Below, in pieces: positions 284 through 32,726 of a stretch of DNA of 64,000 nt; position 1 is the first letter of the stretch, and every line of letters starts with the position of its first letter. This stretch comes from a virus (taxonomy: Duplodnaviria; Heunggongvirae; Uroviricota; Caudoviricetes). The position numbers were made by a program, and so were the translations under genes. The notes below the pieces were generated by a model that was given only the letters and a program-made list of their open reading frames with translations, searched no databases and was not told the DNA's origin. The stretch is taken from the IMG/VR virus record IMGVR_UViG_2667527592_000002; one strand, given 5' to 3'.

Positions 284-359
284 GGCCCTTTAGCTCAGTG
301 GTTAGAGCAGGCGACTCATAATCGCACGGTCACCGGTTCAAATCCGGTAGGGGCCACCA
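284..359 (+). tRNA. tRNA with CAU anticodon (Met or Ile2/lysidine type)
   Basis: 76 nt cloverleaf read by hand: acceptor GGCCCTT/AGGGGCC, D-arm GCTC-AGTGGTTA-GAGC, anticodon loop CTCATAA, T-arm ACCGG-TTCAAAT-CCGGT, encoded CCA. Confidence 0.9.
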
Positions 360-3643: not shown

Positions 3644-5151
3644 TGGCTGGCGGGCGCAAGATTAAATGCGTCACCAGCGATCCACGCTGGCGCGATATGG
3701 TAATCAAATACCGCTACAACTTTACCCAGGCTGTTGTCGATATTTTTGGGATGTTCCCCTCCCACCAGCAGCAGCAGATCATTCAGTCAGTGCAGGAAAC
3801 GGGGAGTAGGACGACCGTCACGTCCGGACACGGAACGGGGAAGTCGTCCCTTACCGCGATGTTGCTGTTGATTTTTATGATCCTGTTCCCCGATGCCCGT
3901 GTCATCATTGTTGCTAACAAGATAGGCCAGGTAAAAACAGGCGTATTCAAATACGTTAAACAGTATTGGGCGAATGCAGTTAAGCGTCATGGGTGGTTGC
4001 AGACCTATTTTGTCCTCTCTGACACCATGTTTTATGAGCGCTCCCGTAAGGGGATTTGGGAAGTTCTCTGCAAAGGTTATCGACTCGGCAACGAAGAAGC
4101 GCTGGCGGGGGAACACGCGGCACATTTGCTTCTAATTCTGGACGAAGCATCTGGTATATCTGATAAGGCGATCGGCGTAATGACCGGTGCTCTTACTGAA
4201 GAAGATAACCGGATGTTGATGCTATCCCAGCCAACAAGGCCAAGTGGTTATTTCTACGATTCGCACCATTCTCAAGCAAAAACCCCAGACAACCCGAAAG
4301 GGATCTGGACAGCAATTGTTCTTAACTCGGAAGAATCACCGTTCGTCACACCACAATTCATCAAGCAGAAGCTTCTGGAATATGGCGGGCGCGATTCTAT
4401 TGAGTACATGGTCAAGGTGCTTGGTCAGTTCCCACGAGAAATTAACGGCTATTTGCTTGGTCGTGATGAATGCGATCGCGCTGCTCGCCGCAAGGTGTTG
4501 TTGGAGAAAAACTGGGGATGGGTGGCAACGGCTGACGTTGGTAATGGGCGAGATAAGTCGGTCCTCAACATCTGCAAAGTATCTGGTCACAGGGATAAGC
4601 GGCGCGTTGTTAACTTTAAGGTAATGGAGATGCCTGGCACTATGGACCCATTGGCCTTTGCTGACTTCATATATAACGAATGTACGCCGGAAAAATACCC
4701 GAATATAACAATCGCGGTTGATGCTGATGGTTTTGGTTCTGATACGTGTGCGCAGTTGGTGCGTCGTGGTGCGAACCCGGTACGTATTCGGTGGGGAAAA
4801 CCCATGTTTGCGAACAAAGACAGGGAGCGATTTGTTAATCAGCGTGCCTACGCAAATATTATGGCGCGTGATGCCATAAAGTCAGGGCGTATGCGGATAG
4901 ACAGTGACCCTAAAACGGCAGAGCAAGCGTCAAAAATCCCCTTTTTACTGAATGAAGAAGGGAAAATGGCGATGATGCGCAAAGAGCACATGCGGCAAAA
5001 GCTAAACATCAAATCGCCTGACCGATGGGATACCTACTGCTTCACTATGCTGGTGGACTATGTGCCTGCTAATGAAGATATTGGTGCCGAAATGGCAACT
5101 TTCCGAGATCAGGTTCTGGCGGATATCGAAATGCCGGATCTGGATATATAA
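3643..5151 (+). CDS. terminase large subunit (PacB-like)
   Basis: 502 aa; Walker A SGHGTGKS, Walker B LLLILDEAS, C-terminal acidic nuclease-like region; start overlaps pacA stop. Confidence 0.7.
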   Translation: MAGGRKIKCVTSDPRWRDMVIKYRYNFTQAVVDIFGMFPSHQQQQIIQSVQETGSRTTVTSGHGTGKSSLTAMLLLIFMILFPDARVIIVANKIGQVKTGVFKYVKQYWANAVKRHGWLQTYFVLSDTMFYERSRKGIWEVLCKGYRLGNEEALAGEHAAHLLLILDEASGISDKAIGVMTGALTEEDNRMLMLSQPTRPSGYFYDSHHSQAKTPDNPKGIWTAIVLNSEESPFVTPQFIKQKLLEYGGRDSIEYMVKVLGQFPREINGYLLGRDECDRAARRKVLLEKNWGWVATADVGNGRDKSVLNICKVSGHRDKRRVVNFKVMEMPGTMDPLAFADFIYNECTPEKYPNITIAVDADGFGSDTCAQLVRRGANPVRIRWGKPMFANKDRERFVNQRAYANIMARDAIKSGRMRIDSDPKTAEQASKIPFLLNEEGKMAMMRKEHMRQKLNIKSPDRWDTYCFTMLVDYVPANEDIGAEMATFRDQVLADIEMPDLDI

Positions 5152-5178: not shown

Positions 5179-6216
5179 TTACCAGAGCTTCGCGGCGTAC
5201 TGCGTTTGGGGGAATGTGTATCCGTAACGTTCTTCGATTGCTTTGCCGTATTTTTTACGAGCTTCATTCAGTTTAATGCCGGTCAGGTCGTCTCCAGAGG
5301 CCATCATTACCTCTAACAATTCCAGATCCATTTTATCCAGCCTTGCCATTGCTTCACGTGATGTACGTATCTTACGCTCAATGATATGGCGAATAGCCGG
5401 ATCGGCATCCTCCAGCATCTTAGCGGATTTCTGCTTAAGGCTTTCATTGCGAATATCGATGTTCCTTAAGATGTACGACTTCGCAACGTAGCTTGGCTGG
5501 TGTTTTTCCAGGTCACGAACACGATATAAGTTAAAATCGCCGAGAAGGCTGCAAGGTACCGATTCGACGCCAGAATAAATTGTAATGCTCCGGCGTTCAC
5601 CAACATTATTGACAACGGGGATCGTTGTCTTCGGTAGTCTTGCGAAAACCAATGCGCCATGTGCGCCAACTCTAAAGCGAGAAAGGGCATTGCTGCCTTC
5701 GATGTTTGTTGTCAGCACAACATCTGTATATGCCTCTTTACGCGCCCGGTAGATCTCGCCTTCAGGCTCAGCTTCAAAGAAGCGCTGTTCTTCTTCAAGA
5801 GCGCCTACGATTTGAGAAAAAACCCTATTTTTCAGGCTTTTCTTTATGATTTTGTCGTATTTTTTGAGCAATTGTTCACGTGTAAATGTACGTGTTGTTG
5901 TAGCGCTTTGCACAACAACATGCGTGCTTTGATTGGTGTCCTCAATGATGAATGGGATCGGAGAATATACAGACTCAACAATGTTCGACGCTTTGCCGTC
6001 GGCATCGCGGCACATGTCAACGAAGGCTTTCCATTCAGCAAGACATTTTTCAGCTTCTTCTAATATGTTTTGGTCATGCGTTAATGCAACATGGCGGAAT
6101 TCCTCGCCAGCATAACTGGTATCATGGAAAACAGAGTTTGCGACCACCAGCTCTTTCCACCGTTCAGCGGTTTGCAGGAACCGTTTGTACTCTTTCTCGA
6201 TCGACTTCTTACTCAT
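5179..6216 (-). CDS. hypothetical protein (345 aa); candidate lysogeny regulator by position
   Basis: ORF track; ATG with AGGA RBS; operator-like motif 16-33 bp upstream; sits between terminase and lox-cre. Confidence 0.55.
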   Translation of the reverse strand: MSKKSIEKEYKRFLQTAERWKELVVANSVFHDTSYAGEEFRHVALTHDQNILEEAEKCLAEWKAFVDMCRDADGKASNIVESVYSPIPFIIEDTNQSTHVVVQSATTTRTFTREQLLKKYDKIIKKSLKNRVFSQIVGALEEEQRFFEAEPEGEIYRARKEAYTDVVLTTNIEGSNALSRFRVGAHGALVFARLPKTTIPVVNNVGERRSITIYSGVESVPCSLLGDFNLYRVRDLEKHQPSYVAKSYILRNIDIRNESLKQKSAKMLEDADPAIRHIIERKIRTSREAMARLDKMDLELLEVMMASGDDLTGIKLNEARKKYGKAIEERYGYTFPQTQYAAKLW

Positions 6217-6231
6217 TATTCCTACTCGATT

Positions 6232-6249
6232 TAGTTTTCTAACATAAAA
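6232..6249 (+). promoter_or_regulatory. operator-like motif (TAGTTTTCTAACATAAAA)
   Basis: Recurring asymmetric motif; overlaps promoter region of 5179..6216. Confidence 0.45.
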
Positions 6250-6425
6250 TTACTATGACAAATTTATGTCGAATAACAGAGTGAGTAAAGGATCGAACTG
6301 TGATTTTTTGTCATCAATTTTAGAAAACCAACCGTAGAAACCACACTTCGCAAATTAAAGACCATGAAGGCAACGTGTTACTGGTCATCATCAATCTATG
6401 ATGGATTTAAAAAAATCGGCATTTT

Positions 6426-6459
6426 ATAACTTTAAATAATTGGCATTATTTAAAGTTAG
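6426..6459. other. lox-like recombination site (13-bp inverted arms, 8-bp spacer)
   Basis: ATAACTTTAAATA-ATTGGCAT-TATTTAAAGTTAG; arms 12/13 complementary and about 10/13 identical to loxP arms; 150 bp upstream of cre-like gene. Confidence 0.7.
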
Positions 6460-6610
6460 GCTATAATCATGTGTAGATGAACAGTGTTGACATCACTGAA
6501 AATACGTGCCTCGAATCAAAGGCTTGTATTTTGAAAATTAACTTATAGCTACCCTGTCATTTTTATATTTTTCGCGTAGCGTCATCTGTATATAGAGGTG
6601 TAATAGTTTC

Positions 6611-7639
6611 ATGGGTGAATTAATTATCTCTGGCAGTTCCGGTGGTTTTCTGCGCAACATTGGCAAAGAGTACCAGGAAGCCGCAGAAAACTTTATGCGG
6701 TTCATGAATGACCAGGGGGCTTATGCGCCGAATACTCTGCGCGACCTCCGGTTGGTGTTTCATTCCTGGGCGCGCTGGTGTCACGCTCGCCAGCTTGCCT
6801 GGTTTCCGATCTCACCAGAAATGGCCCGCGAGTATTTTCTTCAGCTGCATGATGCCGATCTGGCTTCGACCACCATTGATAAGCACTACGCCATGCTGAA
6901 CATGCTGCTTTCGCATTGTGGCCTTCCGCCACTTTCGGATGATAAAAGTGTTTCTCTGGCTATGCGGCGCATCCGGCGCGAAGCAGCAACTGAAAAAGGC
7001 GAACGAACAGGCCAGGCTATACCGCTGCGGTGGGACGATCTGAAACTGCTCGACGTCCTGTTGTCCAGGTCAGAACGGCTGGTGGACCTGCGCAACCGGG
7101 CTTTTCTCTTTGTTGCATACAATACGCTGATGCGTATGTCGGAAATCTCGCGTATTCGTGTAGGAGATCTGGACCAGACAGGTGACACTGTCACGCTACA
7201 TATTTCACACACGAAGACAATAACGACCGCCGCCGGGCTTGATAAGGTGCTTTCCCGTCGCACTACCGCTGTGCTGAATGACTGGCTGGATGTTTCCGGG
7301 CTTCGCGAACATCCTGACGCAGTGCTGTTCCCGCCGATACACCGTAGCAATAAGGCCAGGATCACGACAACGCCCCTTACTGCACCTGCAATGGAGAAAA
7401 TATTCAGCGACGCCTGGGTGTTGCTGAATAAAAGAGATGCTACGCCAAACAAAGGAAGATACCGGACGTGGACCGGGCATAGTGCACGCGTCGGGGCCGC
7501 TATTGATATGGCTGAAAAGCAGGTGTCTATGGTGGAGATCATGCAGGAAGGAACCTGGAAGAAACCGGAAACACTTATGCGGTATCTTCGCCGTGGCGGC
7601 GTGTCTGTGGGGGCTAATAGCCGCCTGATGGATTCGTAA
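6611..7639 (+). CDS. cre: Cre-type tyrosine recombinase
   Basis: 342 aa; long collinear similarity to P1 Cre including GHSARVGAA...W...Y active-site region and NTLMRMSEISRIRVGD block. Confidence 0.9.
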   Translation: MGELIISGSSGGFLRNIGKEYQEAAENFMRFMNDQGAYAPNTLRDLRLVFHSWARWCHARQLAWFPISPEMAREYFLQLHDADLASTTIDKHYAMLNMLLSHCGLPPLSDDKSVSLAMRRIRREAATEKGERTGQAIPLRWDDLKLLDVLLSRSERLVDLRNRAFLFVAYNTLMRMSEISRIRVGDLDQTGDTVTLHISHTKTITTAAGLDKVLSRRTTAVLNDWLDVSGLREHPDAVLFPPIHRSNKARITTTPLTAPAMEKIFSDAWVLLNKRDATPNKGRYRTWTGHSARVGAAIDMAEKQVSMVEIMQEGTWKKPETLMRYLRRGGVSVGANSRLMDS

Positions 7640-7642
7640 ATT

Positions 7643-7658
7643 AAATTTCTAACACATC
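7643..7658 (+). promoter_or_regulatory. operator-like motif (AAATTTCTAACACATC)
   Basis: Recurring motif; just downstream of cre stop, upstream of 7713 operon. Confidence 0.4.
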
Positions 7659-7712
7659 TTTTTAGATTAACGCCTTTGCTGTAAAGTACCCTCGCCTATT
7701 TAGGAGGGTGCT

Positions 7713-8057
7713 TTGCAGAGTCAAATCACGGAATCAAGACGCTTCAAGGTGGATGGTTACACCGTAACCTTCGCCGCTGGTGTTAAGAACAGTCATGCTG
7801 TCGTTGTGTTCGGCATCATGACCGGGCTTGAGGCCGTCCCTGTGTTTACCCTCGAAAAAAACTGGCGAAATCTGGAGGAAGCAGAAAGCTACGTCCGGAA
7901 AGTAACCATCATTGCCGCCGAAAAACTCCTGGCCCACTATCAGGAAAATTATCGCACTATGGTCGAGAAGATTAATCTCGCTTTCACTCGCCCCACTACC
8001 GGCTTTATTGCACCGGATACTAATGCAGGTCGATATCCTGCAAGGGGGCGTCGGTGA
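7713..8057 (+). CDS. hypothetical protein (114 aa)
   Basis: ORF track; TTG start 5 nt after AGGAGG. Confidence 0.45.
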   Translation: MQSQITESRRFKVDGYTVTFAAGVKNSHAVVVFGIMTGLEAVPVFTLEKNWRNLEEAESYVRKVTIIAAEKLLAHYQENYRTMVEKINLAFTRPTTGFIAPDTNAGRYPARGRR

Positions 8058-9035: not shown

Positions 9036-9713
9036 ATGAATAACATGACAACGAAAGAGCTTTTGACGGCACTTCCAAAATACAAAAGCCATAAAACAGT
9101 TCGTGCCTCAAAAATCAAAGATATCGAAATTATCGCCCTAATGGATGTGGTCCTTCTTTGCAACATCGAAGTCGTTGAGCCAGAAGGGGTAAAAGTCCAT
9201 GTTGATAAAATGTTTTTGCAAAAACACCGACCAGAAATTGGCGGATATCTGGTCGCTTATGAGGACGGATCTCTGTCCTATTCACCAGAAAAAACATTTG
9301 AAGAAGGCTTTAGTCGGACTAACGACTTCTTCGAAAATGGGGCATTGCTCAGCATTGAAGGTCACAATGGGGTGACATTCATTACAGCCAGGGACGTAAC
9401 TATTTCTGCTGGCGGTATCGCTACTCTACAAGAAGAAATCGACCTTGAAGCAGCCGACTTTTCTGACGCGCTGATGTGGCTGAAGGATGGCAAGAAAGTT
9501 GCTCGACGCGGGTGGAACGGCGAAAACCAATTCTGCTGGCTGGTTCCTGAAGGACAGTACCCGGCACGAATGGAAGCCATTAAGGGATATTTCCCCGGCG
9601 ACCTCGTTCCGTATGGTGCTTATTTCGCCTTAAAAAATGCACAAGGTGTAGTTGTTCCGTGGGTTCCTTCTGTAGGCGACTTACTGGCATGTGACTGGTT
9701 TGTAGTGGAGTAA
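9036..9713 (+). CDS. DUF2829-domain protein (Tad2-like C-terminal domain) with extra N-terminal domain
   Basis: C-terminal ALMWLKDGKKVARRGWNG ... DLLACDWFVVE matches the DUF2829 hallmark as I recall it; N-terminal 140 aa unassigned. Confidence 0.6.
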   Translation: MNNMTTKELLTALPKYKSHKTVRASKIKDIEIIALMDVVLLCNIEVVEPEGVKVHVDKMFLQKHRPEIGGYLVAYEDGSLSYSPEKTFEEGFSRTNDFFENGALLSIEGHNGVTFITARDVTISAGGIATLQEEIDLEAADFSDALMWLKDGKKVARRGWNGENQFCWLVPEGQYPARMEAIKGYFPGDLVPYGAYFALKNAQGVVVPWVPSVGDLLACDWFVVE

Positions 9714-9719
9714 TTTGAC

Positions 9720-10526
9720 ATGGAAAGCACCAAAACAATTCAATACCGCTTGCGTAATGGCCTGCTGGTGGCTGTTAACGCCGACATGTCACTGCCGTTT
9801 GACACGATTGAACGCACTATCATGACGTATCTCGGCTTTAATGAAGAACTGAATGAAGAGCATGGCGTAGCTATATGGAGTGATGCAGACAGCGGCGTTC
9901 GTCGTTACATCACCGCCAGGGGCAAAGACTACTCTCTGGAAGAACTGTTTGCCCTTGCGCAGTCTTTCGAATGTGTAGCATTAGACCTGTTTAATGATCC
10001 TGCTATAGCGCAACGACTTATACGCGAGCTTGGGCTATCCGTTACACCAATTATCTTTAAAAATGGCAGCCTGACTGGCACATGGCGCGTAGAACGCATC
10101 TCAAACTACCTTCCATATAACCGACAGTTAAATGGAGTAATCTCCGGCGTTAATCAGCCCGTAGCGTGTGAAAATGTAAATCTGGTTGTCGCTGTTTTGG
10201 CAACCGCATGTCGTGTTATCGGTTTGGCTAAACAGGCATTTATTCATTTCCCAAATGGTGCAGAAGGTAGCGCAGAGATTATCGCGTGTGATTTCGAATT
10301 TACCTGGATGCTACGCGAATATCTGGACCAAACAGTGTTCCGCGCCGAAGAACTGGATATGTATATCACGTCAACGATTCCTGATGATGTGCGTGCTGAA
10401 GCAATCGCCACAGCAAGGGCCAAATGCCGTGCGGCGATTGCAGAACAGGCCAAAGAAGAACAGTCCGATGAAGTCGCGGCAGATGTGGAGGCAGAGGTAG
10501 CGGAGGATGCTGATGCTGACGCCTAA
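9720..10526 (+). CDS. hypothetical protein, acidic C-terminus (268 aa)
   Basis: ORF track; GGAG RBS. Confidence 0.5.
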   Translation: MESTKTIQYRLRNGLLVAVNADMSLPFDTIERTIMTYLGFNEELNEEHGVAIWSDADSGVRRYITARGKDYSLEELFALAQSFECVALDLFNDPAIAQRLIRELGLSVTPIIFKNGSLTGTWRVERISNYLPYNRQLNGVISGVNQPVACENVNLVVAVLATACRVIGLAKQAFIHFPNGAEGSAEIIACDFEFTWMLREYLDQTVFRAEELDMYITSTIPDDVRAEAIATARAKCRAAIAEQAKEEQSDEVAADVEAEVAEDADADA

Positions 10527-11613
10527 AAACATCACCGAATTACCAGAGTGGAGAGAGCTGGTAAGCAAATATAGCCATGACTGGGCATTAGCAGCAGAAG
10601 AGTTGATGGGTGTTAAGTTAACCCACCAGCAAAAGCTAATTGTTGAGGCGATTCAACAAAAAGGTTCAGCAGTCAGCGTCACCACTCCTGAAGGGATAGG
10701 CCAAAAGACGGTTATCGCTATAATTAGTATTCTTTATACAATCCTGATGCCTGAGTCTAAAACGGTTATTGTTTCCCCAAAGTTCTATAATTGTCGCAGG
10801 CAAGTTATCCAATACATAAGTACGTATTGGGATAGAGTCAGTAACAGAATCCCATTGCTGGGAGAATATTTTAAAGTCGATGGAAACGGCATCAATCATC
10901 GTTACCGGGAATATTGGGGCTGCGAAATTAAGCCATATCACCGAAATTATGAGGAAGGTTTCGGTGGATATTATGCTGAACATCTTTTAATCATTGTTAC
11001 GGAGGCGGCTCTTGCTGGCGATCGGCTATTCAGCATGTTAAGAGCATCGTTAGTAAGTGACGATTCACGTATACTTTTAATGTCCGCTCCTTCAGAGGAG
11101 GAGCATGGACACTTTTACGATTCCCATCATGGTCGTGCTAAATCAGAAGAAAATCCATGTGGTATTTATACAGCCATCAAGCTGAACGCAGAAGATACCC
11201 CCATTATTTCTCAAGGTTATCTTGATAACATTGCAGAAATATATGGTGGTAAAAACAGCGATTACTACCGTCGTATGGTTCTTGGTGAGTTTCCTGGTAT
11301 TAGGGGGGCTGTTCTTGAATCAGATATGCCGAAGACAATGCGCTTTTCGATGCCTGATGGTAGTGAATGGATAATGCCATTACGAGTGATAGCCCGGCAT
11401 CATGCACAGCACCACGCCAAAAAACATGGCGTTACAACATTGGAGTGGTTGAAATCGCACACCATTCCACTCTTCACTGCAGATCACAATGCTATCGTTG
11501 AGTGGGCAAAAACAATTCCGTGGGAGAATGTTGCTGAATACGCCCACATGCTAAAACCGCCGAAAGACAGGCAAGAAATTAGCTGGCTGACAGCAGAAAA
11601 AATCATTGAGTGA
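10507..11613 (+). CDS. terminase-large-subunit-like ATPase-domain paralogue with degenerate Walker motifs, no nuclease domain
   Basis: 368 aa; collinear blocks shared with 3643..5151 (HLLII.TEA, RILLMS.P, GHFYDSHH, YGG, GEFP); Walker A GIGQKT, Walker B IVTE. Confidence 0.6.
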   Translation: MLMLTPKNITELPEWRELVSKYSHDWALAAEELMGVKLTHQQKLIVEAIQQKGSAVSVTTPEGIGQKTVIAIISILYTILMPESKTVIVSPKFYNCRRQVIQYISTYWDRVSNRIPLLGEYFKVDGNGINHRYREYWGCEIKPYHRNYEEGFGGYYAEHLLIIVTEAALAGDRLFSMLRASLVSDDSRILLMSAPSEEEHGHFYDSHHGRAKSEENPCGIYTAIKLNAEDTPIISQGYLDNIAEIYGGKNSDYYRRMVLGEFPGIRGAVLESDMPKTMRFSMPDGSEWIMPLRVIARHHAQHHAKKHGVTTLEWLKSHTIPLFTADHNAIVEWAKTIPWENVAEYAHMLKPPKDRQEISWLTAEKIIE

Positions 11614-11648
11614 TAGTAGGAAGCCCGCCTGGTTGAGCGGGCTTCTTT

Positions 11649-12029
11649 TCAAATATTGGAACCATATAGTTCACGTAGTTTTTCCGCTACTGAAGATACG
11701 GGGATTTCACCAGTTGCAGCCCCCACCGCAAGTTCCACCAGCACGGGAGAATCATATACCTGTATACCGTTACGGCGTAGAAATAGCAGCGCACTGTTTA
11801 GCGCGGTACGCTTATTGGCATCATTGAATATATGCCCTCTCGCAGTAGCCACCAGGTAGGTTGCGGAGACTTCGAAAAGGTCGGTGATCTCTTCGTAGGC
11901 AACTCTGGCCTGAACTCTCCCGATAATGGCCTCTGCCCTACCCGGATCTGACATTCCCGGCAGGCCGCCGTAGCGGCTTATATTCGCATCATGAAGCGCA
12001 ATAAGTTCTTCCGGTGATATATGCCTCAT
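11649..12029 (-). CDS. doc: Doc toxin (Fic-family kinase), phd-doc addiction module
   Basis: 126 aa, near-identical to P1 Doc as I recall it ([22 protein letters not shown]... [11 protein letters not shown]). Confidence 0.95.
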
Positions 12030-13084: not shown

Positions 13085-13835
13085 GGTCCGCCTCATGTTT
13101 ATCAGCCACCAGCGGCAATAAAGCCTTCGCCATTTCATGAACCAACATGGCATCAATGACGCCTAGCGTATGGCCCGGCTTAATCTTTAATGCGGCCTCA
13201 AGATAGCCTCTTTCCAGAGTGGTTTTTACGCTTTTCCTGGGCGCTTGTTGGGAACTATCCGGAAAATCCGGATGGTTCCCAGCCTCATAAGCTACCCGCA
13301 ACCAGTGCATGAATGTTTCCGCAGACACACAACCGCAGTCCACATCGATTTTCCCGCGTTGCTGTTCCAGCCATTGCTCAAAATCTAACTTGTAAGCCTT
13401 ACTTTCAGACTTAACTTTCTGAGACGCTATGCGAGCTGCTTCATACTGTTCACGAGTGACAACCGATGTAAACGCACTGCGATCAAGGTCACTGATATCG
13501 CAAATAATGCCATCAATGGAATAATTCTTTGATGATTGGTAATTTTTATGGCGCGTACCAAAAAGAACCGTAGCGCGACTACTACCTGGCATCGTAATGG
13601 ATAGATGGCAAAAATCTTTTCCATCAGGCCATCCACGCCCCTTAGATAATTCCTTCACTAACAAGTCAATCAGTGTCATAGCTTTACCATCCTTGCAAGG
13701 CGCTAAAGCTATTTTGGCAAGCTCCAATACTTCATCTGCTGTGTATCCAGCACCGTGACCATACATTTCGATACGGGAAATAATATCTGAAATACGCTCT
13801 TTAGTGATTCTTGTCATAGTTTTATTTCCTTGCAT
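13068..13835 (-). CDS. hypothetical protein (255 aa)
   Basis: ORF track. Confidence 0.5.
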   Translation of the reverse strand: MQGNKTMTRITKERISDIISRIEMYGHGAGYTADEVLELAKIALAPCKDGKAMTLIDLLVKELSKGRGWPDGKDFCHLSITMPGSSRATVLFGTRHKNYQSSKNYSIDGIICDISDLDRSAFTSVVTREQYEAARIASQKVKSESKAYKLDFEQWLEQQRGKIDVDCGCVSAETFMHWLRVAYEAGNHPDFPDSSQQAPRKSVKTTLERGYLEAALKIKPGHTLGVIDAMLVHEMAKALLPLVADKHEADHANES

Positions 13836-14023
13836 GGTTCGCCTTTACGGCAAACAGCTACACGGTCATTTCTTACATTAACCACAGTCACCGTTCCGTC
13901 ATCGCATTGAATAACGATGAAAGAGTGTTCATTCTCTTTTGTGCAATGTTGCTGTTCCCCTGCTGTAACAGTGAGGGGAATTAATAAAATAATAATTACT
14001 GCGAATTTACTAAATGTTGCCAT
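13814..14023 (-). CDS. small secreted protein with signal peptide and 4 Cys (69 aa)
   Basis: N-terminal hydrophobic signal-like segment; ORF track. Confidence 0.4.
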   Translation of the reverse strand: MATFSKFAVIIILLIPLTVTAGEQQHCTKENEHSFIVIQCDDGTVTVVNVRNDRVAVCRKGEPCKEIKL

Positions 14024-14047
14024 AGCAATCTTTCTTTCTGTTTTTCA

Positions 14048-14341
14048 TTATGGTTGAATCCAGTTATCTTCAATAGCAATGCTCAATCTTTGTAACCATT
14101 CTGCTAATTTCAGCATTGCTTCTCTTTCGCTTAAACCACGAGGAAAATCATCAAGCGATATTGTTGGCTTGAAGTTTCCCAAATTATCCATTTCAACGGT
14201 CAGATTTTGCTCCAGCACGGTATTCCTTACGCGGCTATTGTGCCGAAGCAAATATACTGAACGTGATTTATTGGTTTTGTGGTCGAACGTATATTCGGTA
14301 AGTATCATCTGGCTTCCGCCATGATTATTACCGCGCCACAT
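14048..14341 (-). CDS. hypothetical protein (97 aa)
   Basis: ORF track. Confidence 0.4.
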   Translation of the reverse strand: MWRGNNHGGSQMILTEYTFDHKTNKSRSVYLLRHNSRVRNTVLEQNLTVEMDNLGNFKPTISLDDFPRGLSEREAMLKLAEWLQRLSIAIEDNWIQP

Positions 14342-14648
14342 AATTACTCCGTGTTAATTTTACCTTTATCGCGAACACCTTTACCGGTTTATCGCCGAAG
14401 TGCGGGTGTGTGATTATCTTGATTTCATAGCCGTCATACGGAACATCAATTCTGCGGCTGGAATCGTCGCGCTTCGGATATCCCTTTGTGATAATCAGGC
14501 GGTCATACTTACGGTTAACGAGGCGCTTATTCCAGTAGTCATTACACAGGCGATACTCTTCCGTTTTCTCCCCGCGAATCATGGCATCGAAGTATTCACC
14601 TTTAACGGCAAGTTGCAGGTTAGCCATTACCTCACCTCCAGTCTCCAT
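14328..14648 (-). CDS. hypothetical protein, possible ASCH/PUA-like fold (106 aa)
   Basis: ORF track; weak resemblance only. Confidence 0.45.
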   Translation of the reverse strand: METGGEVMANLQLAVKGEYFDAMIRGEKTEEYRLCNDYWNKRLVNRKYDRLIITKGYPKRDDSSRRIDVPYDGYEIKIITHPHFGDKPVKVFAIKVKLTRSNYVAR

Positions 14649-14887
14649 ACCGCCTGACCAATCCGGCTGGCATGGGTATCTTTGGATACTGTTCCGTCTT
14701 TAGCCAGCTCCATAAGAATTTTGCGCAAATCTGCCGAACGCCATTCTTCATCAGGAAATTCCTTCTCCATTGCCAACCGCAGATTCCAGGTTGCCATCCT
14801 GAATGGATATTCCCCGCCGAGAGCTTTATCTTGCAGGGCAGCCCGGGAACGCATCACCTGCAAAACCTTCTCTTTTACATCCATCAT
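14627..14887 (-). CDS. hypothetical protein (86 aa)
   Basis: ORF track. Confidence 0.4.
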   Translation of the reverse strand: MMDVKEKVLQVMRSRAALQDKALGGEYPFRMATWNLRLAMEKEFPDEEWRSADLRKILMELAKDGTVSKDTHASRIGQAVWRLEVR

Positions 14888-15897
14888 TTCGCCTCCTGCG
14901 GCGGTTCTGGTAGCGGCATCCAGTGAGTTACTTTCGATGCCGGTTCTTCCCCATCGTCAGTAACTGCCCACCATTTGTTTCTCGACCAATCGTAATACCC
15001 TTCGAAGGTATTGCACTCAGTCCAGCCGTAAGACTTACCCCAACACCAAACATACTGTTTATCGTTCGGCATTCGCTCACTACAGCTTATCCAACTATCC
15101 GGAATGACCGGAGAGTTGCCAGTCAGTCTACGCAAAATAGCCTTAACAGCCTCAATACGGTCATCATCGCAACTTTCCAGCGTATCTATGCGATCGAGCA
15201 TGATGATGGCGTTATCAATATCAGGATTGCCGGTCCACTCATTACCGCGATTGGATTCGGCAGTCTGGTTGCCGCGTACTGGTTGATTCTCGGCTTTACC
15301 CTGTCTGTCGTTGCTGCATGAATGCCCTTCCAGCCAGGCCAATGCTTGTCGCATGAAATACGCAATATGTTTGCCGTGGTAATCGTCTTCATTGATGTGA
15401 AAAGCGATACTGCGGATGTATTCAATTGCGTTTTCAATGGCCTCCGGCGTTATCGGCGCTGACATATTTTGATTTTGGAGTGCCAAGACGCGGCTGGCAT
15501 CCTCAACACCTTTAACGGCATCTGCGCAGTAGTTATAGCGATTGCATTCCACTAACTTTTGCTTTAGGTTTTCAATTGCTTGCGCGACATCAGCCTGTAT
15601 TACCGGCGCTGGCGGTGCGGTATAAAACTTCGTCCCCAACGGCAACAACTTCATCGCTTTTTCTCCCTTAATGATGCGATAAGTTGATTTCCCGCCAAGG
15701 TCTACCGTTCCATCCATAACAAGGCCATATCGCTTCTCTGAAACTTCACCAATAGGCTCTGCTTCCAGCGATGCCAGTGCGATACGAAACACATTGGCAA
15801 GCAGGCTGTCTGAAGATTGGTTATCGTGCGCCGGGTCGCTCAGGAAACCAGTGATGAATGATTTAATCTCCGCGTTTTCTCTGGTAATAGTGATCAT
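14884..15897 (-). CDS. hypothetical protein with DUF551-like C-terminus (337 aa)
   Basis: C-terminal W-rich segment ending THWMPLPEPP typical of phage DUF551 proteins. Confidence 0.55.
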   Translation of the reverse strand: MITITRENAEIKSFITGFLSDPAHDNQSSDSLLANVFRIALASLEAEPIGEVSEKRYGLVMDGTVDLGGKSTYRIIKGEKAMKLLPLGTKFYTAPPAPVIQADVAQAIENLKQKLVECNRYNYCADAVKGVEDASRVLALQNQNMSAPITPEAIENAIEYIRSIAFHINEDDYHGKHIAYFMRQALAWLEGHSCSNDRQGKAENQPVRGNQTAESNRGNEWTGNPDIDNAIIMLDRIDTLESCDDDRIEAVKAILRRLTGNSPVIPDSWISCSERMPNDKQYVWCWGKSYGWTECNTFEGYYDWSRNKWWAVTDDGEEPASKVTHWMPLPEPPQEAK

Positions 15898-16641: not shown

Positions 16642-17121
16642 TTACTCACCTTCTTTGATGCGAATGCCTGCGGCGCGTGGCACATTAACTTCCACGATGC
16701 GCACTGTTGGTTTGTACATCTCAATCGCTGTCAGCCAGTCAGCGCCGGTCATACGCTTTTCTGCATCGCCATTAGTCCACTTAACCGGTACACCAATAGC
16801 CTTCATCGCAATTTCTATTTCCCCGGCAATGGCGCTTTTCCCGCAACCAGTAAAACCAGATACAACGACAAGAACTTCGCCTTTTGCTGGTTTTATTTCC
16901 CGCGCCTCCACCTCTGCAATTCGGCACATAGCATCGATATTTGTGTCTTCCTGGCGTTTAACTTCATCCAATAATGCCAACGCGATATCTGGCGAAAAGT
17001 GCTTCATAAAATCGTTAAGCGCATTAATTCGCTGATCGAAAGGCATTACAGGCGCTTCACCAGCAATTTTTGTTTTTTCAGCAATTTCACGAAGCTTTTG
17101 ATAGTCAATTTTGTTTGTCAT
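16642..17121 (-). CDS. P-loop NTPase-like protein (159 aa)
   Basis: Walker A-like VVVSGFTGCGKSA; start overlaps stop of PAPS-reductase-like gene. Confidence 0.5.
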   Translation of the reverse strand: MTNKIDYQKLREIAEKTKIAGEAPVMPFDQRINALNDFMKHFSPDIALALLDEVKRQEDTNIDAMCRIAEVEAREIKPAKGEVLVVVSGFTGCGKSAIAGEIEIAMKAIGVPVKWTNGDAEKRMTGADWLTAIEMYKPTVRIVEVNVPRAAGIRIKEGE

Positions 17122-17996
17122 GCCACTACCTCTTCGAATTTCAACTCCAATTGGTCACCCCAGATTTCACATGATTCGGAACACGAACCAGTATCAAACC
17201 GCTTGGCCTGCACCATCGCCTGATACAAATTTCTGTAGTCGCTGTCGGCATACATTCTGGCAATCCCGTCAAGCGTCAGGTGACCACGGTACATAACGTC
17301 TTTACCTGTTCTGCGATGACCATCCCTGACGTGTTTGCCTGTAACCAGTTCATTAAAAACCCGCATCAGACCTGGTTCGTCTTTACATGCAAGCCCCAGC
17401 TTTTGCGTTGACTTTTTGATGCAAAAAACACAGTTCCCGAGGTGCTCCGGGATTTGCAAATCAAAAGGTTGTTTTCGCCACCACCGGATAACATCCGACT
17501 TATCAAAATCTGACAGCTCGGCAAGATACCGGACGCCCGGTTTCGGTTTCAGCCTACGGGGTTCGTCCGCACGAATACCCAGCCATGTGATGTAATTCCC
17601 TCGCCCAAAATGGTCATCGCAATATTTCGTGAAAGGGGTGAGTTTTAGCCTGTCAGTACAGAACGCGCCGCCGATGTATGGCGTACCGTACTTTTTAACC
17701 ATGTCCATAAACGGTTTAAGCACCGGCATTCGCGTCTGAATATCCTTTGGTTCCCATTCCGTATAACCATTTGGCTGCCCAAGTTCTGGATTTATATCGA
17801 CCTGCAACACCGTTAGCGGTACATTCCAGAACTTCACAACCTCACGAATAAAGCGATACGTCAGAGGATGTTCACAGCCGGTATCCATAAAAATGAAATG
17901 GACGCTAGCGCCAGCTTTTCGCTGTGCTTCCATCAGATGAACGAGATAAGCCGATGTTCGTCCACCTGAAAAGCTGACGACTTGATGCATACTCAC
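17118..17996 (-). CDS. PAPS reductase-family protein (PP-loop ATP pyrophosphatase fold)
   Basis: VVSFSGGRTSAYL ... IFMDTGCEHPLTYRFI parallels the CysH N-terminal region. Confidence 0.8.
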   Translation of the reverse strand: MSMHQVVSFSGGRTSAYLVHLMEAQRKAGASVHFIFMDTGCEHPLTYRFIREVVKFWNVPLTVLQVDINPELGQPNGYTEWEPKDIQTRMPVLKPFMDMVKKYGTPYIGGAFCTDRLKLTPFTKYCDDHFGRGNYITWLGIRADEPRRLKPKPGVRYLAELSDFDKSDVIRWWRKQPFDLQIPEHLGNCVFCIKKSTQKLGLACKDEPGLMRVFNELVTGKHVRDGHRRTGKDVMYRGHLTLDGIARMYADSDYRNLYQAMVQAKRFDTGSCSESCEIWGDQLELKFEEVVA

Positions 17997-17999
17997 GGT

Positions 18000-18692
18000 T
18001 TATTCCTGAACGCGCTTAAACTCGATTACCCATACCCACGGGTTAGATAGCCAGTTATCCTGCCCGTAAATACTGCGCCAGATATCACCAAAACCAACGC
18101 GATAAACAGCTTCCGGCGGCGTAATTTTGTACATCGCCGGAGATGCGCCTTCTGCTTTAGCATCTGCCTCGCTCATATCACGCAGCCGTTCCACACGCAC
18201 GTCGGTAATTTCCAGCAAAATGCGCGATGCCCAGCGCGGCATGTGAATTGATGGACGCCACCCGCCATCAAATTTTTCATTCACAGTGTGAGGTTTCCAG
18301 TCGGCATCATCGGGTATCGACCACAAGCCGTAATCACCCGGCTTTTGCTCACAACTGGCCCGATAAATCCTTGCTGCGTTCTTCTCATCGCCACGACAAA
18401 GGTTGTCGTTCCAGTCCACACTGCAACCATCCTCATTGCCTAATATCGCCCACGCCTCACGGACCCATATGCGATCACCAACGTTACCGAACGGGCATAA
18501 ACCATGTTCAGGTGCATCCATAACGTGGGTATAGACACCATTGCGTTTCTTGGTCGGTTTACGGATAACCAGGCAGTTATCGGCCCTGACATTTTTTACA
18601 GGTCGGCGAGTCTGCGTCTTCCTTCCTTCGAGGATGGCCCTGACCATCTCATCGTTAAAAATCATCCCGCGTTCTTTCATTTTTTGATCCAC
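18000..18692 (-). CDS. hypothetical protein (230 aa)
   Basis: ORF track; N-terminal MIFNDEMVRAILEGRKTQTRR motif common in phage proteins. Confidence 0.5.
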   Translation of the reverse strand: MDQKMKERGMIFNDEMVRAILEGRKTQTRRPVKNVRADNCLVIRKPTKKRNGVYTHVMDAPEHGLCPFGNVGDRIWVREAWAILGNEDGCSVDWNDNLCRGDEKNAARIYRASCEQKPGDYGLWSIPDDADWKPHTVNEKFDGGWRPSIHMPRWASRILLEITDVRVERLRDMSEADAKAEGASPAMYKITPPEAVYRVGFGDIWRSIYGQDNWLSNPWVWVIEFKRVQE

Positions 18693-18696
18693 CTCA

Positions 18697-21283: not shown

Positions 21284-21528
21284 TGTGGTGGCTCCTGCTT
21301 TTCTGCCTTCAATACCATGCGCGAACCATCATCCAGCTCCCAATTAATTTCACCGCCTTCAGCCATGACTAGATGCCAAACGAGTTGTGCGGCCTCGTTG
21401 GTTACATCACGACCGCGATCATTGCCGACACGACGTTTTGTTCCATCCCCTAAGTCACGCATTTTTGCCAACACGATGGTTTTTGATAGCGGTGAAAAAC
21501 CAAGCTGTAGTCGTGCGGTATTACTCAC
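21280..21528 (-). CDS. hypothetical protein (82 aa)
   Basis: ORF track. Confidence 0.4.
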   Translation of the reverse strand: MSNTARLQLGFSPLSKTIVLAKMRDLGDGTKRRVGNDRGRDVTNEAAQLVWHLVMAEGGEINWELDDGSRMVLKAEKQEPPQ

Positions 21529-22322
21529 TGTTTACCTCCTTTTCGAAGCTGTTCGGCGATATCTTCGAGAACGCCATCAGAGAATGAGCGGTCAAAATCG
21601 CCTTCCCGCGCATTAGCCATAAACTCAGTAGAGGTAAGAATCATCCGGGCAATATCCGCGGCGTTCTTCGCAGTATCATCAATAAAACCAGCTTCCCAAG
21701 CAGCCAGCATCCTGTTCGCCACAAAGTAAGCGCCCTCCTTGCGTGCTTCAGTCTTCACTTCATCCAGGAAAGTGTCGGTCGCAGGAGTGGTTTTTTGTGG
21801 TGATAGGGCGATACGAATTGTTTCAAGAGCTGGATCTATTTCCACTGTTGGCACCTTGATAAAACCAAGCTGCACGCCATTCATAATGAACGTGCGGCGA
21901 TCCTCACATATCGCCTTCAGTCTCGCATTCTCCGCAGCCAGCGCCGCGCGATTACCCTCCAGCTCTGCAATGCGCTGTTTTGCGGCATCAAGTTCAATCG
22001 ATAATTTTTCCAACTGCTCTTTATGCTTCTTGTATTCCTGATATGCGTGCCAAGACTGACCTTTGCGCACACTATCAGTAATATCAGTAATCTGTTCTGG
22101 TGTTAGCGTGGTCAGTGGCTGTGCTGGGAAAATCAGCACTTTCCCGGAATCCCAATCAAAACCAGCGTGAATTGACTGAACCTCAACTGAGGGTGTTGAA
22201 CCAATGCTGCCAGGCGAATGAACAACGATCGTTACATCCATATCGCGACGATGGCTGTGGTTATTGGACAAAATACGATTCACCAACTCAGAAAATTTGG
22301 AGAATTTCATGCGGAGCCTCAA
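21525..22322 (-). CDS. coiled-coil protein; C-terminal domain paralogous to 22726..23229
   Basis: Shared block AAENARLK / AAENALARK and similar C-terminal halves. Confidence 0.5.
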   Translation of the reverse strand: MRLRMKFSKFSELVNRILSNNHSHRRDMDVTIVVHSPGSIGSTPSVEVQSIHAGFDWDSGKVLIFPAQPLTTLTPEQITDITDSVRKGQSWHAYQEYKKHKEQLEKLSIELDAAKQRIAELEGNRAALAAENARLKAICEDRRTFIMNGVQLGFIKVPTVEIDPALETIRIALSPQKTTPATDTFLDEVKTEARKEGAYFVANRMLAAWEAGFIDDTAKNAADIARMILTSTEFMANAREGDFDRSFSDGVLEDIAEQLRKGGKQ

Positions 22323-22729
22323 TATGCAAAATAGACAGTTGCCACACCGTTATAGTGATCAAACGATACGGCGTTTACTTCATAGCTGGCAGGAAGCTTC
22401 GAGCCGAGAACGTATCCGGGCCACGTTTTCCATGGAATTTCTCTACTCTCACTATCCCCATATACCGTACATCCAAGCGAACCTACAGCCTCGTCAGAAC
22501 GTTTGCCGCATGTTATGAAACCTATATTTTTCTTGCTGGCCTTAATGGCGATTGGGTGAACACTGGCTGATGCATTGGCAGCACGCTGTGACTGTTGGTT
22601 TGCGATATTCGCAGAGTTCGCAGCAGCTACAGCAGCCGTGGTCGCGGCGGTAGATGCCACAATAACTGCTGAAGCCTGCGCCTGTTGGGTAATGGTCAGC
22701 AATGCCGCCACAAAAATCATCTTCTTCAC
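22319..22729 (-). CDS. secreted protein with signal peptide, C-terminal aromatic residues (136 aa)
   Basis: MKKMIFVAALLTITQQAQA signal-like N-terminus; ends VYFAY. Confidence 0.5.
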   Translation of the reverse strand: MKKMIFVAALLTITQQAQASAVIVASTAATTAAVAAANSANIANQQSQRAANASASVHPIAIKASKKNIGFITCGKRSDEAVGSLGCTVYGDSESREIPWKTWPGYVLGSKLPASYEVNAVSFDHYNGVATVYFAY

Positions 22730-23229
22730 TTGTCAGCTCCTTTGCGAATCTGTTCCGCCCATTCTTCAAGGGATTTCTCCGCATATTCACCGGACAGGCC
22801 ATCAATCGGGTGCGATTCATTAGCCAACTCTTCTTTCGCTGACAGAATCATGCGCGTAACGTCGAAAACTTCACGTAAAGACTTATTGATAAATCCGTGG
22901 TTGAAAGCAGCAGCAAGACGGCTTGCGGTATAGTTAATCCCCTCGTTGCGAGCCTCCGCACGAATTTCAGCCAGGAAAGCATCGGTGACTGGCATATTTC
23001 CTGTTGCCTTCATGGCCTCCAAAATAACCAGAACGCCATCTCTCCCTACCACCTCGCAGATAACCTCGGTGTTGTCGCCAACAACATCGCAGAATGCCTG
23101 AACTGCTTTACGAGCAAGTGCATTCTCCGCCGCTAGCGCAGCACACGCTTTCTCAAGTCGGGAAATTTCCGTTACATACTCAGCGTTACGCTCTGCCAGT
23201 TGCGCGGGCGTTAAACCTTCAGACTTCAT
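22726..23229 (-). CDS. coiled-coil protein, paralogue of 21525..22322 C-terminal domain (167 aa)
   Basis: ORF track; paralogy seen by eye. Confidence 0.5.
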   Translation of the reverse strand: MKSEGLTPAQLAERNAEYVTEISRLEKACAALAAENALARKAVQAFCDVVGDNTEVICEVVGRDGVLVILEAMKATGNMPVTDAFLAEIRAEARNEGINYTASRLAAAFNHGFINKSLREVFDVTRMILSAKEELANESHPIDGLSGEYAEKSLEEWAEQIRKGADK

Positions 23230-25494: not shown

Positions 25495-25597
25495 AATACT
25501 GACTGTTGCGCCCTGGCATTATCGTGGGGTATATTTCTACGGCACCTTAGAAAAACGGGTGCCGGGATTGGAACCCCGGATAATGCAAAAGGCGACA

Positions 25598-25622
25598 CAG
25601 ACGCCGAAAGCGTCTTTTTTTG
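25598..25622 (+). terminator. rho-independent terminator (GACGC-CGAAA-GCGTC then T7)
   Basis: 5-bp GC-rich stem, 5-nt loop, seven T. Confidence 0.6.
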
Positions 25623-25806
25623 TGTCATGCCATCGCACAGCCATACGTAGCGTTTAGCTCAGAGATCAATGGTAGTGCTGGCTGGGCTGCCGAAAGGCAG
25701 GCCGGTTCCCTTTTGCGCCGGTAGTTCCAACCCAGTCAGTGCTACCGCCATTGAGATTGGAACCTCACGCGGTAGCTCCTTAAATTAGCAAAAGGAGGCT
25801 GCCAAT
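25623..25806 (+). ncRNA. candidate structured regulatory RNA (immI/c4-like position)
   Basis: GAAA-tetraloop hairpin CTGCC-GAAA-GGCAG; repeats CGGTAGTTCC / CGGTAGCTCC; inverted GTTCCAA / TTGGAAC; immediately upstream of icd-like RBS. Confidence 0.25.
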
Positions 25807-27022: not shown

Positions 27023-27334
27023 ATGAAAAAAATAGATTTCACTTATTCTGCCGCCACAATCCAGCGACGTTTCAGTCTCATAAGGGAAGTGGAACTATCA
27101 AAAAACTTGTATCAAATTCTACTGGATGAAGAGTTTTCACTGATGGTTATAGCAGAAAAATTAGCTATGCCGAACGACCGGCACAAGGTCATAGCCAGCC
27201 TCGATCTGGTGACAAACAGATACTGGGAGAAAGAGGAACTACATGAGGCGGGAGTAATTCGTGACCTGATGGAGAATTCCGTTCCCCGCCGCTATCGTGC
27301 AGGGAACGGCATCTCCGTGGTTAAAGGTGTTTAA
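27023..27334 (+). CDS. hypothetical protein (103 aa)
   Basis: ORF track. Confidence 0.4.
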   Translation: MKKIDFTYSAATIQRRFSLIREVELSKNLYQILLDEEFSLMVIAEKLAMPNDRHKVIASLDLVTNRYWEKEELHEAGVIRDLMENSVPRRYRAGNGISVVKGV

Positions 27335-27723
27335 AGCTCACCTGCGCGCTGTTTTTCAAGCACAGATTTAACATTTGGCGCTTTCCCTTTAAAAGAATGG
27401 AAAGTGCCACATTTTTCTGTTTTAACCTCGCGCAGAGCTTCGCCATCGGCGTTCTGCCATTGATGGGATAATGTCATATCACCGCGAGAAGGAACATCCA
27501 GCGAGTACAGCGTGTAAGTTCCCCCCATCTCCGCATACTCCTGGAACACATAGCTCATTACGTCAGATTCAGTTTTTCGGTGTGCGTTATCAACCTTATT
27601 CCCATTCAGAAATATGGCATCTGGATAGATTTTTATATCAAACCGACCGCACTTAACTTGTAAATTTCCGGCGCTCGCGATCAAAGGGAAAGACGCCAGT
27701 AAAGCAATAGCCAATCTTTTCAA
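27331..27723 (-). CDS. secreted protein with signal peptide (130 aa)
   Basis: MKRLAIALLASFPLIASA signal-like N-terminus. Confidence 0.5.
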   Translation of the reverse strand: MKRLAIALLASFPLIASAGNLQVKCGRFDIKIYPDAIFLNGNKVDNAHRKTESDVMSYVFQEYAEMGGTYTLYSLDVPSRGDMTLSHQWQNADGEALREVKTEKCGTFHSFKGKAPNVKSVLEKQRAGEL

Positions 27724-27743
27724 TTCTGCCTCCGCTGCGTAAC

Positions 27744-32320: not shown

Positions 32321-32623
32321 TTACTCCAGTTCTATTGTATCCGCGTCAATGGCATCGTATTCCTTGTGTGTTCCAATAAATTTAACGAACATCCATCCTC
32401 GCTGATAAGCAATTGCGACAATTAACCTGTAATCATTTCCCTTAATATTGAACACCACGCGCCTGTTTTTAAGGATGCTGGCTGTCCGGTACTGTTCTTT
32501 GATCTCAGCCGGATTTTTCCAGTCAGCCTTTGTTGCTTCATCAACCCATGCCTTTAATGGCTGTTCTGCATCGGGATTCTTCGCCCAGAAATCCCTTAGT
32601 GTCTTTACCGAAATTATTTTCAT
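32321..32623 (-). CDS. higB: HigB-family toxin (RelE/ParE fold)
   Basis: FNIKGNDYRLIV ... KFIGTHKEYD parallels E. coli HigB; ATG 32623 after GAAGGA RBS. Confidence 0.8.
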   Translation of the reverse strand: MKIISVKTLRDFWAKNPDAEQPLKAWVDEATKADWKNPAEIKEQYRTASILKNRRVVFNIKGNDYRLIVAIAYQRGWMFVKFIGTHKEYDAIDADTIELE

Positions 32624-32653
32624 CACAGATTCCTTCTTTCTGAAAGTATAGTA

Positions 32654-32699: not shown

Positions 32700-32726
32700 A
32701 TGAATTGAAATCACAATCTCCAGACA

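What the first reader, a model, noticed from the sequence alone, without database searches (positions are those of the whole stretch)
6426..6459. Variant lox site upstream of the Cre-like recombinase
The 34-bp site ATAACTTTAAATA-ATTGGCAT-TATTTAAAGTTAG has 13-bp inverted arms (12/13 complementary) around an asymmetric 8-bp spacer and lies 150 bp upstream of cre. The arms match loxP arms (ATAACTTCGTATA) at about 10/13 positions but differ in the central three bases, and the spacer is unrelated. The recombinase also diverges from Cre outside the catalytic core, so this is a candidate orthogonal Cre/lox pair.
Basis: partly seen in the sequence, partly recalled or inferred. Interest (0 to 1): 0.5.

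Follow-up and report, generated by a model that had tools for sequence, protein, structure and literature searches.

The report
Known rox site of Dre recombinase

Summary
The sequence is exactly as described. Its best parse is a perfect 14-4-14 palindrome at 6427-6458 (TAACTTTAAATAAT-TGGC-ATTATTTAAAGTTA). This is the only perfect close-spaced inverted repeat with arms of 12 bp or more in the 64-kb window; 30 simulated windows gave none. It is 32/32 identical to the annotated rox crossover site of phage D6. The 342-aa ORF that starts 152 bp downstream (6611-7639) is Dre: 341/342 identical to D6 Dre, 41% identical to P1 Cre, with all catalytic residues present. A published paper prints the same 34 bases, including the two flanking ones. 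Dre/rox was described in 2004 as a Cre/lox-like pair that does not cross-react with Cre/loxP, and it is widely used in mice, zebrafish and bacteria. The window is a D6-like phage-plasmid; the locus occurs in 124 of 5,426 complete E. coli genomes. Two small additions came out of the comparisons. The rox core supplies the -35 (TTGGCA) of an 11/12 sigma-70 promoter match pointing at dre, and its TATAAT box is kept in all 30 related loci examined. Homology between lineages also breaks exactly at the left edge of rox. Verdict: real, functional, already known; low interest.

The parts
6427..6458 (.). rox, the 32-bp recombination target of Dre (14-4-14)
   Evidence: Perfect 14-bp inverted repeat with a 4-nt core. 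32/32 identical to the annotated rox of D6 AY753669.1 4909-4940. Unique in the window. The same sequence is printed in PMC3082901.
6427..6440 (+). left rox arm TAACTTTAAATAAT (binding site for one Dre monomer, by analogy with Cre on a loxP arm)
   Evidence: Identical in window, D6 and 4 of the 7 plasmids, and in all 23 viral contigs, though those were retrieved with both arms fixed in the search pattern. One natural A9G variant occurs in pEF-4 and pFUJ80155-1.
6441..6444 (+). asymmetric core TGGC, which gives the site its direction
   Evidence: Anatomy as in PMC4777119. The D6 genome record is linearised inside it, at window 6442/6443. Natural variants TAGC, TAGT and GGGG were seen.
6445..6458 (+). 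right rox arm ATTATTTAAAGTTA
   Evidence: Invariant in all 9 sequences of alignment A2.
6611..7639 (+). dre, Cre-like tyrosine recombinase of 342 aa
   Evidence: 341/342 identical to D6 Dre AAV84949.1, S2G only. 26 synonymous and 1 non-synonymous nucleotide differences. Pfam Phage_integrase 5e-17. E = 5e-69 to Cre chains in the PDB. 41% identical to P1 Cre. R175, E178, K202, H290, R293, W316 and Y325 are present.
6440..6467 (+). candidate sigma-70 promoter reading towards dre: -35 TTGGCA (6440-6445, inside the rox core), 16-nt spacer, -10 TATAAT (6462-6467)
   Evidence: 11/12 consensus match and the only promoter-like site in 6150-7750. The -10 box lies 3-4 bp after rox in 30/30 related loci (one is TATGAT), including one whose Dre is 70% identical. 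Function is inferred, not shown.
5179..6216 (-). c1 prophage repressor gene (context: rox lies in the c1-dre intergenic region)
   Evidence: Position and length correspond to the annotated c1 of D6. No Pfam match.

Best explanation
Window 6427-6458 is rox, the 32-bp target of the tyrosine recombinase Dre encoded 152 bp downstream (6611-7639), on a D6-like P1-type plasmid prophage of E. coli. By the Cre/loxP mechanism, one Dre monomer binds each 14-bp arm and two rox sites synapse as a Dre tetramer. Tyr325 then cleaves and exchanges one pair of strands to form a Holliday junction, after which the second pair is exchanged. The asymmetric TGGC core fixes the site's direction, so directly repeated sites give excision. 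In the phage's life cycle this most likely resolves plasmid-prophage dimers into monomers for stable inheritance, and circularises terminally redundant virion DNA after infection, as Cre/loxP does for P1. What is shown here: sequence identity to rox and Dre, conserved catalytic residues, purifying selection on dre, and conservation of site, position and orientation across relatives. What comes from the literature: Dre recombines this exact sequence and does not cross-react with loxP. What is inferred: the strand-exchange details, the cleavage positions and the biological role in D6-like plasmids.
For: The site is 32/32 identical to the annotated rox of D6, and the intergenic region is 99% identical. 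The protein is 341/342 identical to Dre. The window is collinear with the D6 genome across the site. PMC3082901 used '(A)TAACTTTAAATAAT TGGC ATTATTTAAAGTTA(G)' as rox and found efficient Dre recombination with no cross-reactivity with Cre, VCre or SCre. PMC3553980 reports Dre-specific excision and co-integration on rox. PMC4777119 gives the 14-4-14 anatomy and the conserved Dre active site Arg175/His290/Arg293/Trp316/Tyr325, and all of these residues are present here. dre shows 26 synonymous against 1 non-synonymous change relative to D6. rox sits 152-153 bp upstream of dre, in the same orientation, in 20 viral contigs and 6 plasmids whose Dre ranges from 99.7% down to 69.6% identity. It stays 94-100% identical while the flanks fall to 32-80%. 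The role in keeping P1 monomeric is stated for Cre/loxP in PMC2409434, and multimer resolution is assigned to the cre/lox homologues of D6-like prophages in PMC6799933.
Against: Nothing here contradicts it. Several limits apply. No recombination assay was run on this window's allele (Dre S2G), although residue 2 lies outside the region that aligns to Cre. The original 2004 paper could not be read in the held library, so its content is cited through later papers. The Dre cleavage positions on rox have not been mapped biochemically, according to PMC4777119. The dimer-resolution and cyclisation roles for D6 rest on analogy with P1.
Confidence: 0.95

Rival explanations
1. A new, previously undescribed lox variant and recombinase, that is, a novel orthogonal Cre/lox pair distinct from every known system.
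For: The site differs from loxP (21-22/34 matches) and the recombinase is only 41% identical to Cre. Read without databases, it looks new.
Against: The site is identical to published rox and the protein is 99.7% identical to published Dre. The locus is present in 144 plasmid records and in 124 complete E. coli genomes.
Confidence: 0.01
2. Dual-function site: besides being the crossover site, the rox core and right arm form a sigma-70 promoter for dre (-35 TTGGCA 6440-6445, -10 TATAAT 6462-6467). Dre bound at rox would then occlude the promoter and autoregulate its own synthesis. This adds to the main explanation rather than replacing it.
For: 11/12 match to consensus with a 16-nt spacer, and the only promoter-like hit in 1.6 kb. 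The TATAAT box is kept 3-4 bp after rox in 30/30 loci (one TATGAT), even where the adjacent 100 bp are only 61-72% identical. There is no other gene between rox and dre, whereas P1 has cra and three annotated cre promoters, all downstream of lox.
Against: A consensus match is not evidence of function, and the region is AT-rich. The -35 weakens in the natural spacer variants (TTAGTA, TGGGGA) with no visible compensation. A second invariant TTGACA at 6487-6492 could belong to the real promoter. No transcript data exist, and I could not check whether the 2004 paper already discusses this.
Confidence: 0.35
3. The palindrome is only a regulatory operator or a hairpin terminator, or a chance AT-rich palindrome, and recombination occurs elsewhere.
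For: The same arm palindrome with a TAAT core, flanked by A7/T7, occurs in a Clostridia MAG with no Dre-like gene within the 8 kb of the locus. AT-rich palindromes of this kind can therefore arise without a recombinase.
Against: Published assays used minimal 32-34-bp rox sites and found them sufficient for Dre recombination. No T-run follows the site in the window. The palindrome is unique in the window and absent from simulations. It is strictly linked to dre in position and orientation across relatives.
Confidence: 0.01

Closest known systems
Dre/rox of Escherichia/Salmonella phage D6 (Sauer & McDermott 2004; GenBank AY753669.1, MF356679.1)
   Same: The 32-bp site is identical. Dre is 341/342 identical. 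The position between c1 and dre is the same, as is the 152-bp distance to the start codon. The surrounding genome is collinear at 88-98% identity.
   Different: This is a different isolate. The region is about 97.5% identical at the nucleotide level. Dre carries S2G. About 9 kb of the window's accessory genes have no D6 counterpart. The closest records are E. coli plasmids such as CP055626.1, at 99.5%.
Cre/loxP of phage P1
   Same: Both are simple tyrosine-recombinase systems. Cre is 343 aa and Dre 342 aa, they align end to end at 41% identity, and they share the same catalytic residues. Both targets are inverted-repeat sites of about 34 bp with an asymmetric core, located at the same genome position next to the immunity region. 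The arms share 10/13 bases.
   Different: loxP is 13-8-13 and rox is 14-4-14. The central three bases of each arm differ, as does the core. Neither enzyme acts on the other's site. P1 has the cra gene and three promoters between lox and cre, so cre starts 419 bp from lox, whereas dre starts 152 bp from rox with a promoter-like element overlapping the site.
Other Cre-like pairs used as tools: VCre/VloxP, SCre/SloxP, Vika/vox, Nigri/nox, Panto/pox
   Same: Each is a single tyrosine recombinase acting on a short palindromic site beside its own gene, and the pairs are mutually orthogonal.
   Different: Those sites are 13-8-13 and unrelated in sequence. vox has about 33% sequence homology to rox, and Vika is 23% identical to Dre.

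Membership tests
Dre/rox system of phage D6 | Target sequence TAACTTTAAATAAT-TGGC-ATTATTTAAAGTTA (32 bp, 14-4-14) | tested here: met
   32/32 identical to the annotated rox and to the sequence printed in PMC3082901.
Dre/rox system of phage D6 | Adjacent recombinase is Dre | tested here: met
   341/342 identical to AAV84949.1 over the full length.
Dre/rox system of phage D6 | Location in the c1-dre intergenic region of a P1-like plasmid prophage | tested here: met
   The gene order lpa-pacA-pacB-c1-rox-dre matches the D6 annotation. The window is collinear with the D6 genome.
Dre/rox system of phage D6 | Dre-dependent recombination between two rox sites; no recombination by Cre | not testable with these tools
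   Shown in the literature for the identical site and for a protein differing only at residue 2. Not assayed for this allele.
Cre-like tyrosine recombinases (Phage_integrase, PF00589) | Catalytic residues Arg-Glu/Lys-His-Arg-Trp/His and the nucleophilic Tyr | tested here: met
   R175, E178, K202, H290, R293, W316 and Y325 are present, matching the list in PMC4777119. PF00589 scores 62.6 bits against a cut-off of 27.1.
Cre-like tyrosine recombinases (Phage_integrase, PF00589) | Full-length two-domain similarity to Cre | tested here: met
   Residues 22-341 align to Cre 21-340 at E = 5e-69. BLASTP gives 41% identity.
loxP (the target of P1 Cre) | 13-bp arms ATAACTTCGTATA and 8-bp spacer ATGTATGC | tested here: not met
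   Arms match at 10/13, only about 3/8 of the spacer matches, and the whole site matches at 21-22/34. The site is lox-like in design but is not loxP.

The most novel reading that the evidence does not exclude
The rox site doubles as the promoter of its own recombinase. The asymmetric core plus flanking bases (TTGGCA) act as the -35, and a strictly conserved TATAAT lies 3-4 bp beyond the right arm. Dre occupancy of rox would then shut off dre transcription, a built-in autoregulatory loop that is absent from P1 Cre/loxP. This would also constrain the natural spacer sequence. In addition, rox marks a natural mosaic breakpoint where D6-like plasmids exchange immunity modules.
Probability: 0.3. Interest if true: 0.25.

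Novelty: already known. Interest (0 to 1): 0.07.

Why it matters
Dre/rox is a standard tool, used alongside Cre/loxP for intersectional genetics in mice, zebrafish and bacteria. Finding it again in a natural D6-like plasmid adds nothing fundamental. It does show that the first-stage reader can recognise a functional recombination site and its orthogonality from raw sequence alone. Three points have minor practical value. Natural rox core variants exist (TAGC, TAGT, GGGG), as does an arm variant (A9G). Dre homologues down to 70% identity keep the same arms. A likely promoter is embedded in rox, which could matter when rox sites are placed upstream of reporters in bacteria.

Tried and rejected
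1. I tried to read the original description (Sauer & McDermott 2004, PMC534624 / doi 10.1093/nar/gkh941), the D6 genome paper (PMC5800970) and the P1 genome paper (PMC523184). None is held, so their content is cited only through later papers and GenBank annotation.

2. I considered that plasmid pSa1423-90k shows joint decay of rox (left arm TAACTTCCAAATAAT) and dre. I rejected this. Its dre region aligns with 36 gap openings in about 1 kb, which is typical of an error-rich assembly, so the 'damaged' arm is probably a sequencing artefact.

3. The rox-arm palindrome in a Clostridia MAG (L033) has no Dre-like gene in the 8-kb locus. It has a TAAT core flanked by A7/T7. I treated it as a coincidental AT-rich hairpin, not as a rox site.

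4. My first fixed-offset identity bins were distorted by indels, so I replaced them with gapped MAFFT profiles.

5. A search for additional Dre half-sites or pseudo-rox sites in the window found none.

6. I did not use the large protein-database searches, structure prediction or fold search, because identity to an annotated, experimentally characterised locus made them unnecessary.

Full report
**Observation.** The repeat finder gives a cleaner parse: a perfect 14-bp inverted repeat, 6427-6440 and 6445-6458, around the 4-nt core TGGC (pair I2). The arms are 12/13 complementary and match loxP arms at 10/13, with the three central bases different. The spacer is essentially unrelated, and the whole site matches loxP at 21-22/34. 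The palindrome is not a chance feature. It is the only perfect inverted repeat in the 64-kb window with arms of 12 bp or more and a spacer of 10 bp or less, and 30 first-order Markov simulations produced none. The 32-mer is unique even with 3 mismatches allowed, and there are no further half-sites.

**Identity.** A megablast of 6200-7700 against phage records hits Escherichia phage D6 at about 97.5% identity. The features under the match are annotated 'dre: tyrosine recombinase' and 'region of crossover (rox) site for Dre recombinase'. Aligned directly, the window's 32-mer is identical to D6 rox (AY753669.1 4909-4940), and the intergenic region is 99% identical. The ORF 6611-7639 encodes 342 aa and is 341/342 identical to D6 Dre, differing only by S2G. 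The two dre genes differ by 26 synonymous and 1 non-synonymous nucleotide changes, which indicates strong purifying selection. The protein matches Pfam Phage_integrase. It aligns over its whole length to Cre structures at E = 5e-69 and is 41% identical to P1 Cre. It carries R175, E178, K202, H290, R293, W316 and Y325, which include the active-site residues listed for Dre in PMC4777119. The complete D6 genome record is linearised inside the rox core, corresponding to window 6442/6443. The window is collinear with the reverse complement of D6 over 55 of 64 kb.

[quoted passage not shown] Those are the 34 bases of the finding. The paper found no cross-reactivity among Cre, Dre, VCre and SCre and their sites. 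PMC3553980 likewise shows Dre-specific excision and co-integration on rox, and gives 37% identity between Dre and Cre. PMC4777119 describes rox as 14-bp inverted repeats around a 4-bp asymmetric spacer. It shows that the bases flanking the 4-bp core (positions 2 and 7 of a loxP-like 8-bp frame) dominate compatibility. It argues that the crossover region is functionally similar in length to that of loxP, and notes that the cleavage positions are still unmapped. All of these papers credit the system to Sauer & McDermott (2004), which I could not open. For biology, Cre/loxP keeps the P1 plasmid prophage monomeric (PMC2409434). The cre/lox homologues of D6-like prophages are assigned the multimer-resolution role (PMC6799933).

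**Host replicon and prevalence.** The closest records are roughly 90-95-kb E. coli plasmids at 99.5% identity, for example CP055626.1. In total 144 plasmid records match at megablast sensitivity, mostly from Escherichia, Salmonella and Shigella. The rox-dre intergenic region occurs in 124 of 5,426 complete E. coli genomes, with 123 places on plasmids and 3 on chromosomes. The window is therefore a D6-like phage-plasmid and not D6 itself.

**Comparative test of the site.** I fetched seven diverged plasmids and 23 viral contigs that carry the rox arms with any 4-nt core. A Dre-like gene was present in the held locus for 20 of the viral contigs and intact in 6 of the plasmids. In all of these the site lies 152-153 bp upstream of the start codon in the same orientation, while Dre identity ranges from 99.7% down to 69.6%. 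Gapped identity profiles show rox at 94-100% identity, while the 100 bp to its left fall to 32-46% and the right flank falls to 61-80% in the more distant relatives. The natural variants seen are cores TAGC (L015), TAGT (pSa128) and GGGG (L022), and one arm change, A9G (pEF-4 and pFUJ80155-1). One apparently damaged arm, in pSa1423-90k, sits in an indel-ridden assembly and was discounted.

**Two incremental observations.**

- *A promoter match overlapping the site.* The only sigma-70-like match in 6150-7750 is an 11/12 fit. Its -35 (TTGGCA, 6440-6445) spans the rox core, and its -10 (TATAAT, 6462-6467) lies just beyond the right arm, reading towards dre. The -10 box is kept at that offset in 30/30 loci, one of them as TATGAT. 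P1 differs: its three annotated cre promoters and the cra gene all lie downstream of lox. This suggests, but does not show, that Dre bound at rox could repress its own promoter.
- *A homology break at the site edge.* Homology between lineages changes abruptly at the left edge of rox. Contig L032, for example, matches the window at 97-100% for 1.3 kb to the right, but only 45% in the first 100 bp to the left and 71-99% further out. This fits rox being a natural crossover point, or a boundary of the immunity module. Distinguishing between the two needs full-length breakpoint analysis.

**Verdict.** Novelty: already known. Interest is low.

Noticed in passing
window 6440-6467: An 11/12 sigma-70 promoter match has its -35 (TTGGCA) inside the rox core and its -10 (TATAAT) 3 bp after the right arm, reading towards dre. 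The -10 is conserved in all 30 related loci. P1 has no equivalent overlap between lox and its cre promoters.
   Followed up: partly
window 6327-6426 versus related loci (L003, L005, L019, L027, L032): The 100 bp immediately left of rox are effectively unalignable between lineages (32-46% identity), while rox and its right flank stay conserved. In L032 the identity jumps from about 80% on the c1 side to 99-100% on the dre side exactly at rox, which marks a mosaic breakpoint.
   Followed up: partly
window 6127-6227 (c1 start codon and 5' end): A roughly 100-bp block 200-300 bp left of rox stays at 99% identity in lineages whose neighbouring c1 sequence is only 70-86% identical. It is an unexplained island of conservation around the c1 start.
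   Followed up: no
window 6483-6499: CAGTGTTGACATCACTG contains a consensus TTGACA. The core CAGT-TTGACA is invariant in all 9 aligned relatives, and in the window it forms a small CAGTG/CACTG inverted repeat. It could be a second promoter -35 or an operator between rox and dre.
   Followed up: no
L008 (pSa128, IncFIB conjugative), L007 (pFUJ80155-1, IncHI1B), L009 (pYUXYEH3934-1, IncFIB): rox plus a gene about 89% identical to dre sit on large plasmids typed IncFIB or IncHI1B (pSa128 conjugative, pYUXYEH3934-1 mobilizable, pFUJ80155-1 non-mobilizable). In pSa128 and pFUJ80155-1 an IS26-family or other transposase gene is adjacent. This suggests the module has been captured outside D6-like prophages. 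pSa128 carries the core variant TAGT.
   Followed up: partly
L015 (IMGVR_UViG_3300009011_000012) 3706-3737: A Dre homologue only 69.6% identical keeps both rox arms unchanged, with core TAGC, at 153 bp from its start. It is a natural diverged Dre that may recognise the same arms.
   Followed up: partly
L033 (OZ007016.1, Clostridia MAG) 6381-6412: The rox-arm palindrome occurs here with a TAAT core flanked by A7/T7, with no Dre-like gene in the 8-kb locus. It is probably a coincidental AT-rich hairpin or bidirectional terminator.
   Followed up: partly
window 25542-25752: Rfam matches to the isrK Hfq-binding RNA (25542-25620) and the C4 antisense RNA (25665-25752). This is the P1-type immI antisense control region, upstream of the icd/antirepressor-like genes.
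   Followed up: no
window 284-359: A tRNA-Met (CAT) gene. The corresponding part of D6 is annotated with tRNA-Ser, tRNA-Thr and tRNA-Asn further along.
   Followed up: no
window 54305-54390: A 22-bp unit repeated 3.9 times (TGAGGGCAAATCTTACACCTTT). By collinearity it maps near the repA-like plasmid replication gene of D6, so it is probably a set of origin iterons.
   Followed up: no
window 9036-9713: An ORF of 225 aa with a C-terminal Tad2-like (Thoeris anti-defence 2) domain, PF11195, E = 1.6e-22.
   Followed up: no
window 10492-11658, 13217-15092, 17114-18694, 21286-23119, 27294-28309, 32325-32707: These accessory segments have no counterpart in phage D6. They include a 368-aa ORF (10507-11613) with no Pfam or PADLOC match, a PAPS-reductase/SspD-like ORF (17118-17996; PADLOC SspD 1.8e-13), and a HigB-family toxin (32321-32626; PF09907 3e-34, PADLOC PD-Lambda-2_A 3e-42).
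   Followed up: partly
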